In this document: positions 3,001 through 60,000 of the stretch, piece by piece
Layout: each line of letters starts with the position of its first letter
Numbering within the stretch: the first letter of the stretch is position 1
Assembly (NCBI RefSeq): GCF_006345805.1
Contig: NC_042998.1
Location: forward strand, 8,246,001-8,310,000
Length of the DNA stretch: 64,000 nt
From: Octopus sinensis
Taxonomy: Eukaryota
Direction of reading: 5' to 3'
Position numbers: made by a program

Positions 3001-6000
3001 AGTAGACAAACCAGAAGTATATTAATCTTTCTTTGCATAAACAGTTAGGTTTGAGTTTAATTATACGTCACACGATCGGGTTTCAGTAACAAATTAGCGT
3101 GATTTGAATCAGTTACTTTTTAGTGTATGTTGATTATTTACTGTAGCAACAAAGTTGAAAACTTGACACTAAAATAATATATTTTTTGTTCATCTAAAAA
3201 CAACTATTTTAGCAATAATGAACTTGTAAATTGTTAATATGACGAAATAAAAAAAACGATACCTTACGAAAAATTCTCTGCACTCGCCAAAATGAAGGGC
3301 TTTGTTTTATCAACTTTTCTTTTAACAATCGTAACGATTAATGACATAACATCTTTTTTTTCTCATTACAGTTATTCAACTCCGGCCTTGCTGAAGCACC
3401 GCCTCGAAGGATATAGTCGAACAAATCGTCTGCAGTACTTATGTTTTGAATTCGCTAATCATTCTATCGGTTGTTTATACGACAGGCTTCCACGCAATTT
3501 CCATCTACCAAATTCACTCACAAGGCTTTGGTCAGCCTGTTGCAATAGCAGAGGACTCTTGCTCAAGGTGCCACGTAATGGGACTAAGCCTAAACCACGT
3601 AATTGCAAAGGGTCATGCCCGTGCCTATTGATTTTAGAAAAGACATTTAGTTAGATTCGTTTTTAGAATCCCCAAATTTGTAACAATCTTTGACAGTTGT
3701 ACACAACTGCAAATTATAGGGAAGCTTATAATACACCAACTTCTGTTATCAACCCCCAAAACAAGAAAGGCAAAGTTGAACGTGGCTAATTGATTACATC
3801 AACCCTAGTAATCGACTGGTACTTATTTTATCGATCCCGGAAGGATGAAAGGCAAATCGATCTCAGCGGAATTTAAGCTCAGAACGCAAAGACAAACGAA
3901 ATACCTCTAATAATTTTGCTCGGTTTACTAACTGTTCTGCCAACTCGCCAATTTGATGATAATAATAATAGTAATAATCCTTGCCAATGTGGCACAAGGC
4001 CTGAAATTTAGTGGAGTTGGGAGTTGGTTGATTACATCAATCTCAGTACAAGACCGGTATTAATTCAATAAGGCGGCGAGCTGGCAGAAACGTTAGCACG
4101 CCGGGCGAAATGCGTAGCCGTATTTCGTCTGCCATTACGTTCTGAGTTCAAATTCCGCCGAGGTCGACTTTGTCTTTCATCCTTTCGGCGTCGATAAATT
4201 AAGTACCAGTTACGCACTGGGGTCGATGTAATCGACTTAATCGGTTTGTCTGTCCTTGTTTGTCCCCTCTGTGTTTAGCCCCTTGTGGGTAGTAAAGAAA
4301 TAGGTATTAATTTATCCGAAAGGATGAAAGGCAAGGTCGACCTCGGTGGAATTTGAGCTCACAAAGTAAAGACGGACAAAATATAGCTAAACATTTTGTT
4401 CGGCGTGCTAGCGATTCCGTTAATAATATCATTAACAATAATATCCCTTTCAATTTTTTGCCCACTCATCTTCGAGTGTTAACCAGTTTCAGAAGTAGGT
4501 ACGACCGCTTCATCACTCAATAGTAATCGACTGAACGATCAGTAAATGTCACGGGATTTAGCTTCGCTGCAAATAAATAATAGAGAGTCGTTAAGTCAGC
4601 ATTTTTTAAATAACGATTGTTTGAAAGCAAGATCGTTATTTACTTTATTTACTCCACGGAGAAAAGAATGTCTATTGCGATATATTGGATCAAATAAAAT
4701 TCAGACAGAACTTAATTATTTCTCCAATTTGCATAACACCGACCTGTAGGAAAGGGCCAACCAGGAGCCCATACATGTTCAGATTAGACGAAGGAAATGG
4801 AGATGGATCGGACACACACTGCGGAAAGAACCCTCAAATGTGACACGACAAGCATTTGACTGGAACCCGCAGGGGAAAAGGAAGCGAGGACGCCCGAAGC
4901 ATTTTAAACGAGCTCAGGACCACCGGCCTGATATGGGAAGCAGCCAAGAAACATGCCAATGACCGCAAAAAGTGGAAAACAACTGGTCCTATGCACCACA
5001 AGGGGCAAAAAGGATTAAGAAGAAGAAAAAGAATACCTGAAATAATTAGCTAGTACAGAAAGTAGCATTTTTAGGGATAATCTGAAATATAAGATGAGTA
5101 AGTGAGTTAACGTGTGTGTGTGTGTGTGTGTGTGTGTGTGTACACATAAGAAATTAGAACGACAAACGAATAAATTATGTTATGAACTTGATCGGCTTAC
5201 AGCTGTTTTTTTTCCTTCTATAAGATGCAATGCACTAATAGAGGAACTGTTGAATAACACCTTATAAGCTTCATCGGAGCTTCGAAGCAATAGGTTGATA
5301 TTCATGCATTCAACGATGAGTGTATTGCATCTTATAGCAGAAACAGTTTCAACCTGATGAAGTTCAAAACAATTATTTTCTTGTCGTTCTAATTGTTATA
5401 ACCGCCCTGGACTCGACTGACACTTCCTTGCGAAGCATATGTATATTGACTTCTACAACCATATATATATAATAAAAAAAGGAAAGTGCTCACAGTTTTA
5501 CATACCTTTGATATATTTTACATGGTAGAGTATTGTGATAGTCGACCGCTTTCGTGTTTCGCTAATCAAGACATTGAAATCATTGCAATTTCGTATTTTA
5601 TTAAGAAGTGTTTAGTCCATGTTCTTGTAGGAGTGTTTGTAAATAAAGGGAGGTAACTACACATTTTGTGGGTGGGATCAATTTTAAAAATTTCTTGTTT
5701 CCTTGCACTGGTAGATGGAGAAAACCGTGAAGTTTGGATGGAGATTCCCTGCATATCTCTTTATGTGTTCACGCAAAGGTACATGTCTATACCTCGGGAA
5801 AAGGATATTTTCCTTATGCAGTGAAGTTCTCCGTTTAAGCGACATCATTGTTTGACCTGTATAGTAGTGTCCACAACCTGAACACGTTATAATAAAAATT
5901 AAATTCTGCTATGCATAAGTGAAATCGGTCTTAATTGTGAATCACTCTCCTTGACTGAAATGGAATTCCGAACCCTCTAGTAGAATAGGACATGTTCCAC

Positions 6001-57000: not shown

Positions 57001-60000
57001 CAGCTTAATGCTAGAGAATTCCAAGCCTTGCGCTGCAAACACAGAAAGGTCAATGAAAAGCGGATAGGATACACTGGCCCAGGAGGGATTCGAATCCCCG
57101 AATTAAAATTAGTGCGTGACCTGGGCATCGACATGAGTAATGATGTATCTTTCCAAGCGCACATTACTAAATTGGCAATAAAATGCAGACGTCTGACCGG
57201 GTGGGTCTTTTGAACTTTCAAAACAAGAGAAAAGGGAACCATGATGGTCCTTTGAAAGACTTTCGTTCTCAGACGTCTGGATTACTGCTCCCAACTGTGG
57301 TCACAAAACAGTGTAGAAGTAACGACAGAACACGAGGTGATCCAGAGAAGCTACACGAAGAAATCGATACAAAACAACGTAACAGCTACTGGGACAGATT
57401 GAAAGAACTAAGAGTCCATTCCTTGGAGTAAAAGTAGGAAAGATATGCAATAACATACATCTGGAAAATCCTAGAAAAATTTGTTCCAAACTTTGCCATT
57501 GTCACTTACACAAATAGCATGACGGGGCGCTACCGTATGGTGTCAAAGGTCCCAACATTGCTATCAGGATACAGGACCAGATATTGCAACAGCTTGGGCT
57601 TCAAAAACCCACAGATCTTCAGTATCCTCCCCCCCAAAAATCTGAGAGAACTGCTTGACGTGGATGTAGGTTTTTTCAAAACAAAACTAGATCTCCTTCT
57701 GTCTAGAGTTCCGGATGAACCTACCTCTAGGGAAGAAACACAGATGAGAGCAGCAACGTCAGACTCCCTCATCCACCAAATGTCCCATATCAGAGGAGGT
57801 ATAGTGAAAGTGTAGCAACTTAAGCGGTGTTTGTTGTTGTTGTTGTTGTTGTTTGTTGTTTGTTCCTTCTCGAGCTATGCCTGGCTCATAAGGGCCAGTT
57901 TCCCGGTTTCATTAGGGTATAGGTTCCCTACTTGGTCGGGACACCGGTCCGTCGCAGGTGAGTTGCTAGATACAGACAGGAGGAAACAGTGAGGGAAAGT
58001 TGTGGCGAAAGAGTCAGCAGAAATTCGCCATGACCTTCTGCTTGAGCCGTGTGGAGCTTAGGTGTTTCGCTCATAAACACACACATCGCCCAGTCTGAGA
58101 TTCGAACTCGCGATCCCTCGACCGCGAGTCCGCTGCTCTAACCACTAGAGTCCATGTACTTCCACGCACACACACTTATATATATATAATATATTATATA
58201 TATATATATAATATTCTATATAGATATATATGATATATATATATATATAACTTAGTATATATATATATTATAGAATATATATATATATATATATATAATA
58301 CATAATAATATATATAATATATATATATATAATATATATATATATATATATATAAATATATATATATAAGGCCGCTGGCAGAAATGTTAGCACGCCGGGC
58401 GAAATGCTTAGCGGTATTTCGTCTGCCGTTATGTTCTGAGTTCAAATTCCGCCGAGGTCGACTTTGCCTTTCATCCTTTCGGGGTCGATAAATTAAGTAT
58501 CAGTTACGCACTGGGGTCGATGTAATCGACTTAATCCCTTTGTCTGTCCTTGTTTGTCCCCTCTGTGTTTAGCCCCTTGTGGGTAGTAAAGAAATATATA
58601 TATATGTATGTACATTATATATACATATATATATATATTGTCGTATTTCGGAATGGCATTTTTTTATAAATAAACACATGTACTATGTATTTTGTTCTTC
58701 ACTCGTTTATTACTGTTCTTTTTTTTTACATATTTTAACTCGTGTCCATTGTCCGGAAATCTTTCGTCACACCTCTGAGACCTCTTCAGTGACACTTTTC
58801 GTCTTCGTGTGTGCTCTTGCTTCACTTGCTCCATTCTGTTCTTCTAAGGTGTGTATCAGTATGGGCGCATGCATTTGAGTTGGTATGCGCACATATGGAT
58901 ACACATCTTAGGATAAAAATCTTAGAAGAACAGAATGGAGTTAGTGGAGCAATAGCACACACGAAAATGAAAAGTGTCGCTTAAGAGGTCTCAGATGTTT
59001 GAAGAAAGATCTCCGGACAATGGACATGGGTTAATTTTTTTTTATAAAAAAATAAGAACAGTAATAAATGAGTGAAGAACAAATATATAGTGCGTGTGTT
59101 TATTTGGCAAAAAAAAATGACCGTCCAAAAATACAACAATATCTGTTTCAACATGCGATTACACATCAGCATTCTTGCAACACAAACTGGTAAACACATA
59201 TATATATATGTGTGTGTGTGTGTGTGTGTGTGTGTATGTATGTATGTATATACATATACATACATGCTTACACATATAGTTTTTCTGTTTTACCTTATAT
59301 GGATATGTCTTCCTTGGTCTTAGGCTATTTAGGGTAAGTGGTTAAGTCGATTACATCAATCCTAGAGTTGTGAAAGCGCCGTTGGGACATACGGCGTATT
59401 TTGAGCAATTTTAGATCTGGTAGAATCCAGCCCCTCCTTGTATCTTAAATATGTGTGCATGTGTGTGTGTGTATGTGTATGTGAGCTTGTATGTGTGTGT
59501 GTACACGTGCGCGTATGCTGTTTCTTTGAGTTTCTTTTTGTCCCAGGCCCTACACGGCCGCAGTTCAATGCCTGACATAAATAAGTAAGCGATAAAACAT
59601 GAAGCATTAAACCTACAAGATTTCATTTTTATTTTCTTTCTTACTCTGTTCGAATATTTTTAAATGCTTGCTATTTTAGATAGTTTTTCTTTTCCTCAAG
59701 GCACTAATATAATTCATATTTATTTACACATGTCTTCGTCTGTGCTTATCACCAACAAAAGTCTCCATTAAGTCTAATATTTGTATTTAATAAATATTGT
59801 AAATATGATGACGCCGCTTATTTCTTCGTTTATATTTCCATCCCGTTTTTCAAAGGATTTCAAAGGAATCATCACTTCCTTTGTTTTTAATGAACTTTAA
59901 CTTTACCTGCTGTCTCTACTCAGCATTCGTTAATTTTGATTACTCCTGCCATTTTTTCTCCTTGAGTCACATCTTTCCACATACTACCAGGAACCATCAG

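What the first reader, a model, noticed from the sequence alone, without database searches (positions are those of the whole stretch)
5152..59142. A recurring class of mini fold-back elements made of two divergent hammerhead ribozymes, with the same geometry as the big Penelope
Seen: four sequence-unrelated short inverted repeats (5152-5394, 6473-6629, 44272-44426, 58636-59142) sit beside (AT)n/(GT)n runs. In each, the left arm carries an HHR-like motif on the minus strand and the right arm carries one (or its remnant) on the plus strand, so they point outward from the centre. The 6.3-kb PLE (16010-22292) has exactly this polarity. Established: PLE pseudo-LTRs encode minimal HHRs, often with palindromic stem III thought to act as dimers, and PLEs can form inverted pLTR structures. 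Inference: these are either heavily truncated products of one fold-back/hairpin-primed insertion mechanism used by several PLE families, or non-autonomous hairpin elements (retrozyme-like but inverted) that propagate as units. Either way they would yield dsRNA hairpins (possible ADAR/RNAi substrates) with a ribozyme on each strand. They would normally be mis-annotated as MITEs.
Basis: partly seen in the sequence, partly recalled or inferred. Interest (0 to 1): 0.85.

Follow-up and report, generated by a model that had tools for sequence, protein, structure and literature searches.

The report
Truncated inverted Penelope-like retroelement ends
Four short DNA hairpins next to simple repeats are real, but only two carry ribozyme-like motifs; these look like broken head-to-head tail pieces of Penelope-like retrotransposons, an arrangement already described, rather than a new kind of mobile element.

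Summary
The four palindromes exist at the stated coordinates, and each lies within 11 nt of an (AT)n/(GT)n block. The 6.3-kb element is a Penelope-like element (PLE-1: RT plus GIY-YIG). It consists of a near-full copy plus an inverted 5'-truncated copy. Each outer end carries a minimal hammerhead-like motif with the known U3-A8 core variant, pointing outward.

The claim of two divergent hammerheads in each small element holds only in part.
- No Rfam hammerhead model, and no model built from PLE-1's own motif, hits any small element.
- With my own descriptor and palindrome-preserving shuffles, el1, el2 and el4 score at chance. el3 does not (0 of 200), and it is the best-scoring site in the window.
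- el4's left arm carries the window's only canonical CUGANGA-helix II-GAAA half-motif.
- el4 also has a solo, non-palindromic relative at 49549-49731 that ends at a (TA)n run. This favours truncation products over hairpins that propagate as units.
- el2 has a MITE-like profile. el1 is unassigned.
- The divergent geometry follows automatically from palindromy.

Opposite-strand minimal hammerhead pairs 100-700 bp apart, inverted truncated PLE copies and microsatellite targeting are all already published. Copy number in the genome could not be tested.

The parts
16015..22285 (.). PLE-1, the composite Penelope-like insertion. It is an inverted 5'-truncated copy (16016-17942, minus strand) joined head-to-head to a near-full copy (17943-22285, plus strand).
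   Evidence: Inverted arms are 96-100% complementary outside a low-complexity stretch. ORFs are listed. RVT_1 matches at E=1.9e-8; GIY-YIG scores 19.6 bits, below its 22.6 cut-off. Relatives of about 750 aa carry RT plus GIY-YIG, and the named ones come from molluscs.
16062..16109 (-). PLE-1 minimal hammerhead-like motif, left copy. The core box reads TTGAAAA (U3-A8 variant), with a 4-bp helix II, a GAAA box, the palindromic ACCGGT as helix III, and A at the cleavage position.
   Evidence: Hammerhead_HH9 at 19.7 bits, E=0.012 in a 201-nt search. It is one of only two zero-mismatch hits of the relaxed descriptor in the window (shuffles average 0.17).
22190..22237 (+). PLE-1 minimal hammerhead-like motif, right copy, identical to the left one.
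58635..59142 (.). el4, a 508-nt palindrome with arms of about 254 nt at 78% identity. I read it as a head-to-head pair of 3'-terminal retroelement fragments.
   Evidence: The left end abuts an AT-rich microsatellite, and the right flank begins with ATAT.
58762..58789 (-). el4 left-arm half-hammerhead on the outward strand: canonical box CTGAAGA, one unpaired G, helix II (5 of 6 pairs), then GAAA.
   Evidence: It is the only canonical hit of this half-motif in the window on either strand; 200 shuffled windows average 0.285. Helix I, helix III and the cleavage site are not canonical (full-motif score at chance, 158 of 200).
58980..59007 (+). el4 right-arm remnant of the same half-motif. The box reads CTTAAGA, and only 3 of 6 helix II pairs are left.
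   Evidence: Three-way alignment A2 and the arm alignment.
49549..49731 (+). Solo, non-palindromic relative of the el4 arms. Its 3' end abuts (TA)n at 49732, and it stops about 51 nt short of el4's outer ends.
   Evidence: BLAST: 64% identity over 291 columns. nhmmer: E=3.9e-5 to the el4 left arm and 0.083 to the right arm. Alignment A2.
49638..49677 (+). Hammerhead-like motif in the solo copy. The box is CTGATGC (A9 replaced), followed by an unpaired G, a perfect 6-bp helix II, GAAA, a 1-bp helix III and a 3-bp helix I.
   Evidence: Score 16.5, within the noise tier of the window scan. The MFE fold is a three-way junction. No Rfam hammerhead hit (0 of 3 matches).
44265..44433 (.). el3, a 169-nt palindrome with 84-nt arms at 81% identity. 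Its left end runs into (AT)n.
44354..44399 (+). el3 right-arm hammerhead-like motif on the outward strand: 8-bp helix I, box TTGACGA (C3 replaced by U), 3-bp helix II with a 4-nt loop, GAAA, a near-palindromic 9-nt helix III, and A at the cleavage position.
   Evidence: Relaxed descriptor, one mismatch. It is the best score in the whole window, 17.5. 0 of 200 palindrome-preserving shuffles reach it. Its own MFE fold is of hammerhead type. Against: no Rfam hammerhead hit and no hit from the PLE-1 model.
44288..44346 (-). el3 left-arm remnant of the same motif. The box is CCGACGA, G sits at the cleavage position, and helices I and III carry mismatches.
6470..6632 (.). el2, a 163-nt element with perfect 35-38-nt terminal inverted repeats, a poorly alignable interior, and TA on both sides. 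It is MITE-like and carries no hammerhead.
   Evidence: Hammerhead score at chance (92 of 200). No Rfam hammerhead hit. The outer part of the right arm weakly resembles the PLE-1 3' tail (6 of 300; 1 of 200).
5152..5394 (.). el1, a 243-nt palindrome at 70% identity, 11 nt from (GT)n. It has one CTGATGA word at 5354 (+) with no GAAA box after it. Its origin is unassigned.
   Evidence: Hammerhead score at chance (106 of 200). No Rfam hammerhead hit.
5471..6172 (-). PLE#2, a second and divergent 5'-truncated PLE fragment covering the endonuclease domain. It lies between el1 and el2, and its 3' end sits next to (AT)5.
   Evidence: tblastn: 44% identity to PLE-1 residues 155-316 at 6172-5699. DNA match of 5700-6127 to 16898-17324. 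I placed the 3' end at 5471 by eye.
15984..16013 (.). (AT)15 directly left of PLE-1. The right flank keeps a short (AT)4.

Best explanation
The four hairpins are not one class.

el4, and probably el3, are old head-to-head pairs of 5'-truncated 3'-terminal fragments of hammerhead-bearing, PLE-type retroelements. The source could be a PLE itself or a non-autonomous element that PLE machinery mobilises. This is the architecture of the young PLE-1 composite at 16015-22285, shrunk to 84-254 nt per arm.

Inferred mechanism, taken from published work and not tested here:
- The PLE RT-endonuclease nicks AT-rich or (TA)n DNA.
- It primes reverse transcription from the element's 3' region on both target strands, or switches template.
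- Two cDNAs then meet 5'-end to 5'-end with their 3' ends facing outward.
- Each arm therefore carries the pLTR hammerhead on its outward strand.

The motifs are now decayed or non-canonical. A transcript crossing both arms would bury them in a long duplex, so the hairpins are insertion scars and not working double ribozymes.

el2 is at least as well explained as a TA-flanked MITE. el1 has no diagnostic feature.

Shown here: the palindromes, the microsatellite adjacency, the anatomy of PLE-1, the hammerhead-like signals in el3 and el4, and the solo relative of el4.

Inferred: the PLE origin of el3 and el4, and the two-strand priming step.
For: - PLE-1 shows the full-size version of the structure: an inverted truncated copy plus a main copy, a hammerhead-like motif at each outer end on the outward strand, and (AT)n flanks.
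- el3: the relaxed descriptor hits both arms. The right-arm motif is the top score of 14 sites scoring 16 or more in the window, and 0 of 200 palindrome-preserving shuffles reach it. The PLE-1 positive control gives 1 of 200.
- With at most one mismatch and a helix I of at least 6 bp, the window has 2 hits against a mean of 0.38 in 60 shuffled windows.
- el4: its left arm holds the only canonical box-helix II-GAAA site in the window, against a mean of 0.285 per shuffled window, n=200. It also shares the 8-mer AGGTCTCA right after the box with PLE-1's motif.
- A solo, non-palindromic relative of the el4 arms lies at 49549-49731. It has the same half-motif, a perfect 6-bp helix II, a different 3' end, and (TA)n at that end.
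- The 3' ends of PLE-1 (both ends), PLE#2, the solo copy, el4, el3 and el2 all abut AT repeats.
- Literature, main texts read:
  - PMC4209133 reports the U3-A8 core variant, palindromic helix III, an unpaired base after position 9, and dual minimal hammerheads 100-700 bp apart on opposite strands, attributed to truncated PLEs.
  - PMC8557442 (passages) reports an inverted 5'-truncated copy adjacent to PLE insertions, a 30-40-bp tail, and a (TA)n target bias. The (TA)n bias is stated there for Naiads, whose endonuclease shares the CX2-5CxxC motif also seen in PLE-1.
  - PMC11167929 (section 3) shows that a purified PLE protein cleaves and extends both strands of an AT-rich target.
Against: - No curated hammerhead covariance model matches el1-el4 or the solo copy at E<=10.
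- A model built from PLE-1's own motif finds only the two PLE-1 copies among 17 matches.
- el4's full-motif score is at chance (158 of 200). Its helix III and cleavage site are not canonical.
- I designed the half-motif test and the scoring scheme after seeing the motifs, so their p-values are optimistic.
- No arm aligns significantly to the PLE-1 3' region after allowing for multiple tests. The 3' ends of PLE-1 and PLE#2 do not align to each other either (47 of 200), so this test has little power.
- With three sequences there is no compensatory double change in helix II.
- The long microsatellite lies on one side only, which symmetric two-strand priming does not predict.
- el1 and el2 show nothing that ties them to PLEs beyond position.
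- Genome copy number and matching autonomous elements could not be examined.
Confidence: 0.55

Rival explanations
1. All four are miniature inverted-repeat DNA transposons (MITEs or foldback-type elements) that target TA/AT-rich sites. The hammerhead-like words are chance features of AT-rich palindromes.
For: - el2 has perfect 35-38-nt terminal repeats with a divergent interior (identity by fifths from centre to end: 3/18, 12/19, 7/19, 19/19, 18/19).
- In el2, and possibly el1 and el3, TA or TTAA can be read at both ends.
- All four fold into one long hairpin, as many MITEs do.
- Only generic miRNA-hairpin models hit them.
- el1, el2 and el4 have full hammerhead scores at chance.
Against: - TA and TTAA are palindromic, so they are automatically part of any palindrome and prove no target duplication.
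- el4 has a non-palindromic solo relative with a different 3' end, which a cut-and-paste MITE does not predict.
- The el3 motif is the top hammerhead-like site in the window.
- Arm identity in el3 and el4 is roughly uniform along the arm and not concentrated at the termini.
Confidence: 0.25
2. They are local inverted duplications made by fold-back repair or template switching at fragile (AT)n/(GT)n tracts. On this view they are single-copy scars and not mobile elements.
For: - Each element is single-copy in the window.
- Each sits at the edge of a microsatellite, on one side only.
- The palindromes run the whole length with tiny centres.
Against: - el4's arms have a relative 9 kb away, so the sequence is repeated.
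- The hammerhead-like signals in el3 and el4 would be coincidences.
Confidence: 0.1
3. The hairpins are non-autonomous retroelements that propagate as complete inverted units (inverted retrozymes), each strand carrying a working hammerhead.
For: - Nothing specific supports it.
- It is not excluded for el1-el3, because the genome could not be searched.
- PLE-derived non-autonomous elements do exist (abstract of bioRxiv 10.64898/2026.07.22.740005; passages of PMC7229834).
Against: - No second hairpin copy of any element was found in 64 kb.
- The only relative found is a solo arm.
- Known retrozymes are direct tandem repeats, not inverted ones (PMC7229834 passages).
- The core boxes are mutated in 3 of the 4 el3/el4 arms.
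- In a full-length el3 transcript, 96% of the motif's bases are paired into the long stem (-84.9 kcal/mol, against -7.5 for the motif alone).
Confidence: 0.07

Closest known systems
Complex inverted insertions of Penelope-like elements, in which an inverted 5'-truncated copy adjoins the main copy (Craig et al. 2021, PMC8557442; passages read)
   Same: - PLE-1 is a textbook case: RT plus C-terminal GIY-YIG with the CX2-5CxxC linker motif, an inverted truncated copy at the 5' side, and AT-repeat flanks.
- el4 and el3 have the same head-to-head polarity, with their 3' ends outward at AT repeats.
   Different: - The small elements carry no coding sequence, so PLE membership cannot be shown directly.
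- Their arms are only 84-254 nt long and 19-22% diverged.
Dual minimal hammerheads about 100-700 bp apart on opposite strands in Schistosoma mansoni, attributed to truncated PLEs (Cervera and De la Pena 2014, PMC4209133; main text read)
   Same: - Spacing, opposite-strand arrangement and the minimal type I architecture.
- The unpaired base after position 9 (el4 and the solo copy).
- The palindromic helix III.
- The U3-A8 core variant (PLE-1).
   Different: - The host is different.
- The motifs here are more degenerate: one core change in each el3 arm, and only a half-motif in el4.
- None was tested for cleavage.
- That paper's descriptor and alignments are in supplements I could not open.
Non-LTR retrozymes, PLE-derived non-autonomous elements with type I hammerheads (PMC7229834, passages; bioRxiv 10.64898/2026.07.22.740005, abstract only)
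   Same: They are short, non-coding, hammerhead-bearing repeats thought to derive from PLE pLTRs. The el4 family (two arms plus the solo copy) could be of this kind.
   Different: Retrozymes are direct tandem repeats that yield circular RNAs. The elements here are inverted pairs or solo copies, and no tandem copy is present in the window.
TA-targeting MITEs (Stowaway/Tc1-mariner type; named from general knowledge, not from a call)
   Same: Small size, a hairpin fold, AT-rich targets, and for el2 perfect terminal repeats with TA on both sides.
   Different: No transposase-bearing parent, no copy family and no unambiguous target duplication could be shown. el4 has a solo, non-palindromic relative.
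5'-inverted LINE insertions (twin priming; the name is recalled, not from a call)
   Same: An inverted duplication created during target-primed reverse transcription. The window holds an example at 29500-30328 inside a non-LTR RT fragment.
   Different: In that LINE case the inverted segment is an internal part of one element, not two 3' ends facing outward.

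Membership tests
Hammerhead ribozyme (type I / minimal PLE type) | Conserved core boxes CUGANGA and GAAA, or the documented U3-A8 covariant | tested here: inconclusive
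   - PLE-1: met through the U3-A8 variant.
- el4 left arm: both boxes canonical.
- el3: one core change in each arm.
- Solo copy: A9 changed.
- el4 right arm: G5 changed.
- el1: first box only.
- el2: neither box.
Hammerhead ribozyme (type I / minimal PLE type) | Three helices around the core, an A15.1-U16.1 pair, and a non-G at the cleavage position | tested here: inconclusive
   - Met for PLE-1 and the el3 right arm.
- Marginal for the solo copy (1-bp helix III, 3-bp helix I).
- Not met for the el4 arms, el1 or el2 (158, 106 and 92 of 200 shuffles reach their scores).
Hammerhead ribozyme (type I / minimal PLE type) | Match to a curated covariance model at its gathering score | tested here: not met
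   - 0 matches in the window at gathering thresholds.
- PLE-1 reaches 19.7 bits against a gathering score of 52.
- No hammerhead family at E<=10 in el1-el4 or the solo copy.
- By my reading of PMC4209133, minimal PLE hammerheads needed their own descriptor, so this failure is weak evidence.
Hammerhead ribozyme (type I / minimal PLE type) | Self-cleavage activity | not testable with these tools
   This needs in vitro transcription and cleavage assays, with monomer and dimer constructs.
Penelope-like element | A reverse transcriptase with a GIY-YIG endonuclease in one ORF | tested here: met
   - For PLE-1: RVT_1 at E=1.9e-8; GIY-YIG at 19.6 bits, below its 22.6 cut-off. The YIG motif and Zn-finger-like linker are visible.
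- Relatives of about 750 aa carry both domains.
- PLE#2 retains only the endonuclease part.
- This does not apply to el1-el4, which are non-coding.
Penelope-like element | pLTR or inverted 5'-truncated copy architecture, with a hammerhead in the terminal repeat | tested here: met
   - Met for PLE-1.
- el3 and el4 share the polarity, but homology to a PLE 3' region is not shown.
Penelope-like element | The arms of the small elements align to the 3' region of an autonomous PLE | tested here: inconclusive
   - Only two PLEs were available.
- 8 arms against the PLE-1 3' 343 nt: the best is the el2 right arm at z=2.8, 6 of 300.
- Of 41 comparisons, one reaches 1 of 200.
- The two PLE 3' ends do not align to each other (47 of 200).
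- No eukaryotic genome or repeat library was on hand.
MITE / DNA-transposon derivative | Conserved terminal inverted repeats with a less conserved interior | tested here: inconclusive
   - Met for el2.
- el1 has a 14-nt perfect end.
- In el3 and el4, identity is about uniform along the arms.
MITE / DNA-transposon derivative | A fixed-length target-site duplication | tested here: inconclusive
   TA or TTAA can be read at the ends of el2 and el3, but both are palindromic and merge with the repeat. el4 has ATAT on both sides inside an AT tract.
MITE / DNA-transposon derivative | Many dispersed copies with the same ends | not testable with these tools
   - No host genome was available.
- Within the 64-kb window there is no second copy of el1-el3.
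- el4 has one solo relative.
Non-LTR retrozyme | Direct tandem repeats, each with a type I hammerhead | tested here: not met
   The arms are inverted, not direct. No direct tandem copies appeared in the self-comparison or the nhmmer searches.

The most novel reading that the evidence does not exclude
At least one of the hairpins (el3 is the best candidate) could belong to a family of non-autonomous retroelements that is copied as a complete inverted unit: a hairpin RNA mobilised by PLE machinery, with a hammerhead relic on each strand. That would be an inverted counterpart of retrozymes, and one that annotation pipelines would file as MITEs. A milder version is that these minimal pairs are genomic footprints of symmetric two-strand target-primed reverse transcription by a dimeric PLE enzyme.
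Probability: 0.07. Interest if true: 0.7.

Novelty: new member of a known kind. Interest (0 to 1): 0.3.

Why it matters
If el3 and el4 are what they appear to be, they are small fossil records of how Penelope-like elements integrate: two 3' ends facing outward at an AT repeat. That is the outcome expected from the in vitro finding that a PLE protein nicks and extends both target strands (PMC11167929). Counting such minimal pairs genome-wide, and mapping their central junctions, would test that mechanism in vivo at low cost.

For annotation, it is a reminder that short palindromes next to microsatellites in invertebrate genomes may be retroelement scars and not MITEs.

It does not establish a new element class, a functional double ribozyme, or any role in RNA editing or RNAi. 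None of these was testable here.

Tried and rejected
- Strict canonical type I/III hammerhead descriptor: 0 hits in the window. It was too strict, because it missed PLE-1's U3-A8 motif.
- Rfam at gathering thresholds: 0 hits.
- Rfam at E<=10 on the whole window: 326 matches, swamped by microsatellite and miRNA noise. Only the best 150 were listed, and none of those was a hammerhead. I therefore repeated the search on short stretches.
- A covariance model built from the two identical PLE-1 motifs: too sequence-specific. It found only the two PLE-1 copies at significance.
- Smith-Waterman comparison of arms against PLE 3' ends and against each other: no result survives multiple testing.
- A 13-nt exact match between el3 and 49841: other loci in the window score higher, so it is chance.
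- The apparent match of 15700-15833 to 6657-6795 is low-complexity (GATA)n/(TA)n sequence.
- The palindromes at 3792-4417 and 61394-62607 are pairs of separate SINE insertions, not fold-back elements.
- The idea that el1 is the 3' end of PLE#2 was dropped. PLE#2 appears to end at about 5471 next to (AT)5, 76 nt away from el1.
- The protein search confirmed the PLE family and mollusc relatives. It gave no DNA context and no clade name.
- Literature searches found no paper that defines inverted hammerhead mini-elements as a class, beyond the sentence in PMC4209133.

Not checked:
- The host genome, Repbase/Dfam, and small-RNA, circRNA or editing data. No tool here holds them.
- The collections metagenome contigs and viral contigs, which are closed.
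- Genome contigs, which I did not scan because it holds only bacteria and archaea.
- Supplementary files, which are closed. The minimal-hammerhead descriptor and alignments of PMC4209133 (figs S2, S3, S7) and the PLE family list of PMC8557442 (file S1, which names cephalopod families) could bear on whether el3 and el4 fit published families.

Full report
**What is there**

The window is AT-rich DNA (62% A+T) full of dinucleotide repeats: 84 AT/GT/AC blocks cover 3.8% of it.
- Against its own reverse complement, el1 (5152-5394) is 70% identical, el2 (6470-6632) 71%, el3 (44265-44433) 81% and el4 (58635-59142) 78%.
- An unbiased self-comparison of the window recovers all four. It also recovers several palindromes that turn out to be pairs of SINE insertions or low-complexity DNA.
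- Each of the four folds into one long hairpin.
- Only 2.8% of window positions lie within 10 nt of a microsatellite block edge, and 4.9% within 20 nt. The left boundary of every one of the four, and of the big element, lies within 11 nt of one. The association with microsatellites is therefore real.

**The big element (PLE-1)**

The region 16015-22285 is a Penelope-like element.
- The plus-strand ORFs match RVT_1 (E=1.9e-8) and GIY-YIG (19.6 bits, just under Pfam's 22.6 cut-off).
- The translation shows the YIG motif and a CX4CX2C linker of the type described for the Neptune and Nematis clades (PMC8557442, passages).
- Database relatives are proteins of about 750 aa with both domains. The few named ones come from molluscs.
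- Structurally it is a near-full copy (17943-22285, plus strand) preceded by an inverted 5'-truncated copy (16016-17942). The arms are 96-100% complementary outside a low-complexity stretch. It sits between (AT)15 on the left and (AT)4 on the right.
- At each outer end, on the outward strand, Rfam's Hammerhead_HH9 model gives a weak hit: 19.7 bits against a gathering score of 52, E=0.012 in a 201-nt search.
- The motif has a 4-bp helix II, GAAA, the palindromic ACCGGT as helix III, and A at the cleavage position. Its core box is TTGAAAA, so positions 3 and 8 are changed together from C-G to U-A.
- That covariant core, the palindromic helix III and the minimal architecture are all described for PLE hammerheads (PMC4209133, main text).

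**Do the small elements carry hammerheads?**

Tests against:
- Rfam finds nothing in the window at gathering thresholds.
- Permissive searches (E<=10) on short stretches list 13, 19 and 24 matches for el1+el2, el3 and el4. None is a hammerhead family; the hits are generic miRNA-hairpin models.
- A strict canonical descriptor finds no site in the window.
- Only 14 CUGANGA words occur on both strands. One is in el1's right arm, with no GAAA box after it, and one is in el4's left arm.
- A covariance model built from PLE-1's own motif finds only the two PLE-1 copies at significance, among 17 matches at E<=10.

Tests for:
- A relaxed type I descriptor that accepts the U3-A8 variant gives exactly two zero-mismatch hits, both in PLE-1. 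With one mismatch it gives eight hits, two of which are the two arms of el3 on the outward strands. Shuffled windows average 0.17 and 4.5 hits respectively (n=60).
- A generic score (core matches plus helix lengths) ranks the el3 right-arm site (44354-44399) first among 14 sites scoring 16 or more in the whole window, ahead of the PLE-1 motifs.
- Against shuffles that preserve palindromy and dinucleotide content, 0 of 200 reach el3's score. For el1, el2 and el4 the counts are 106, 92 and 158 of 200. The PLE-1 positive control gives 1 of 200.
- The el3 right-arm motif has an 8-bp helix I, a 3-bp helix II with a 4-nt loop, a near-palindromic helix III, and A at the cleavage site. C3 is replaced by U. 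The left-arm copy is more decayed.
- el4 fails the full-motif test. Its left arm nevertheless holds the only site in the window with a canonical first box, one unpaired base, a helix II and GAAA (58762-58789, minus strand). Shuffled windows average 0.285 such sites (n=200).
- The unpaired base after position 9 and a G-C closing pair are features the literature lists for PLE minimal hammerheads.

I designed this half-motif test and the scoring scheme after seeing the candidates, so both are optimistic.

**A relative of el4 that is not a hairpin**

- el4's arms have a diverged relative at 49549-49731 on the plus strand: 64% identity over 291 columns; nhmmer E=3.9e-5 to the left arm and 0.083 to the right.
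- It is a single arm, not a palindrome.
- It carries the same half-motif, with a perfect 6-bp helix II. The el4 left arm keeps 5 of 6 pairs and the right arm 3 of 6.
- Its 3' end abuts a long (TA)n tract.
- It stops about 51 nt short of el4's outer ends. This recalls the optional 30-40-bp PLE tail, though that link is only an inference.
- Rfam finds no hammerhead in it, and its full-motif score of 16.5 lies in the noise tier.
- With three sequences there is no compensatory change in helix II.
- Even so, this copy shows that the el4 sequence belongs to a repeat family that also exists as ordinary, non-hairpin, 3'-anchored copies. That is what truncated retroelement insertions predict, and it is not what a hairpin propagating as a unit predicts.

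**el1 and el2**

- el2 has a perfect 35-38-nt outer repeat, a poorly alignable interior (identity by fifths from centre to end 3/18, 12/19, 7/19, 19/19, 18/19), and TA readable on both sides.
- The outer part of el2's right arm weakly resembles PLE-1's 3' tail, collinearly (6 of 300; 1 of 200). That does not survive 41 comparisons.
- el1 has roughly uniform 70% arm identity, a 14-nt perfect end, and nothing diagnostic.
- A second, divergent PLE fragment lies between them (endonuclease part, 6172-5699, minus strand; 44% identity). It appears to end near 5471 beside (AT)5, 76 nt from el1, so it does not explain el1.

**Geometry**

A palindrome necessarily shows any motif on opposite strands of its two arms. 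The divergent arrangement therefore adds nothing beyond the choice of outward over inward. The motifs in el3 and el4, and the lone word in el1, are outward, as PLE 3' ends must be.

A transcript through el3 would fold into the long hairpin (-84.9 kcal/mol), with 96% of the motif's bases paired. The motif alone folds at -7.5 kcal/mol into a hammerhead-type junction. A hairpin with an active ribozyme on each strand is therefore unlikely.

**Mechanism and comparison with what is known**

The best reading is that el4, and probably el3, are minimal versions of the PLE-1 structure: two 5'-truncated 3' ends joined head-to-head at an AT repeat. The published record supports each element of this:
- Inverted 5'-truncated copies next to PLE insertions, and (TA)n as a preferred target (stated there for Naiads, whose endonuclease shares the CX2-5CxxC motif) (PMC8557442).
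- A purified PLE protein that cleaves and extends both strands of an AT-rich target and initiates internally in the RNA (PMC11167929).
- Dual minimal hammerheads 100-700 bp apart on opposite strands, attributed to truncated PLEs (PMC4209133).

The two-strand priming step is an inference for this locus.

One observation does not fit it neatly. In all five inverted structures the long microsatellite lies on the left only, with at most a few AT units on the right.

None can be excluded for el1-el3 without the host genome, which no tool here holds.

**Verdict**

The phenomenon is a new instance of a known kind. I found no paper that treats such pairs as an element class. The evidence here does not justify creating one.

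Noticed in passing
window 49549-49731 (+), next to (TA)n at 49732-49826: A solo, non-palindromic relative of the el4 arms with a hammerhead-like half-motif and a perfect 6-bp helix II. It ends about 51 nt short of el4's outer ends, which may correspond to the optional PLE 'tail'.
   Followed up: yes
window 5471-6172 (-): A second, divergent 5'-truncated PLE fragment (endonuclease domain, 44% identity to PLE-1) lies between el1 and el2. Its 3' end sits beside (AT)5. No hammerhead-like motif was recognised in its 3' region.
   Followed up: partly
window 6214-6397 and 15802-15983: A repeat of about 185 nt (70% identity) directly precedes the AT microsatellite in both places. In one it is followed by el2 and in the other by PLE-1. 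It may be the tail of another repeat family whose AT run serves as a target.
   Followed up: partly
window 29500-29633 and 30195-30328: A 134-nt, 100% identical inverted repeat inside a non-LTR (LINE-type) reverse transcriptase fragment. It looks like a 5' inversion made during insertion.
   Followed up: partly
window 3792-4417 and 61394-62607: Large apparent palindromes that are really pairs of separate tRNA-type SINE copies in opposite orientation. The same SINE recurs many times in the window (for example 58374-58609, 9209-9630, 26427-26716).
   Followed up: partly
left flanks of el1-el4 and PLE-1: In all five inverted structures the long microsatellite is on the left side only. The right flank keeps at most a few AT units. 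Symmetric insertion does not explain this.
   Followed up: no
window 16440-16700 and 21560-21850: The PLE-1 3' untranslated region contains a long (GAT/GAA)n-type low-complexity tract. This is the only part where the two arms differ (about 86% identity).
   Followed up: no
window 63353-63452: A run of 100 N. It was left untouched.
   Followed up: no
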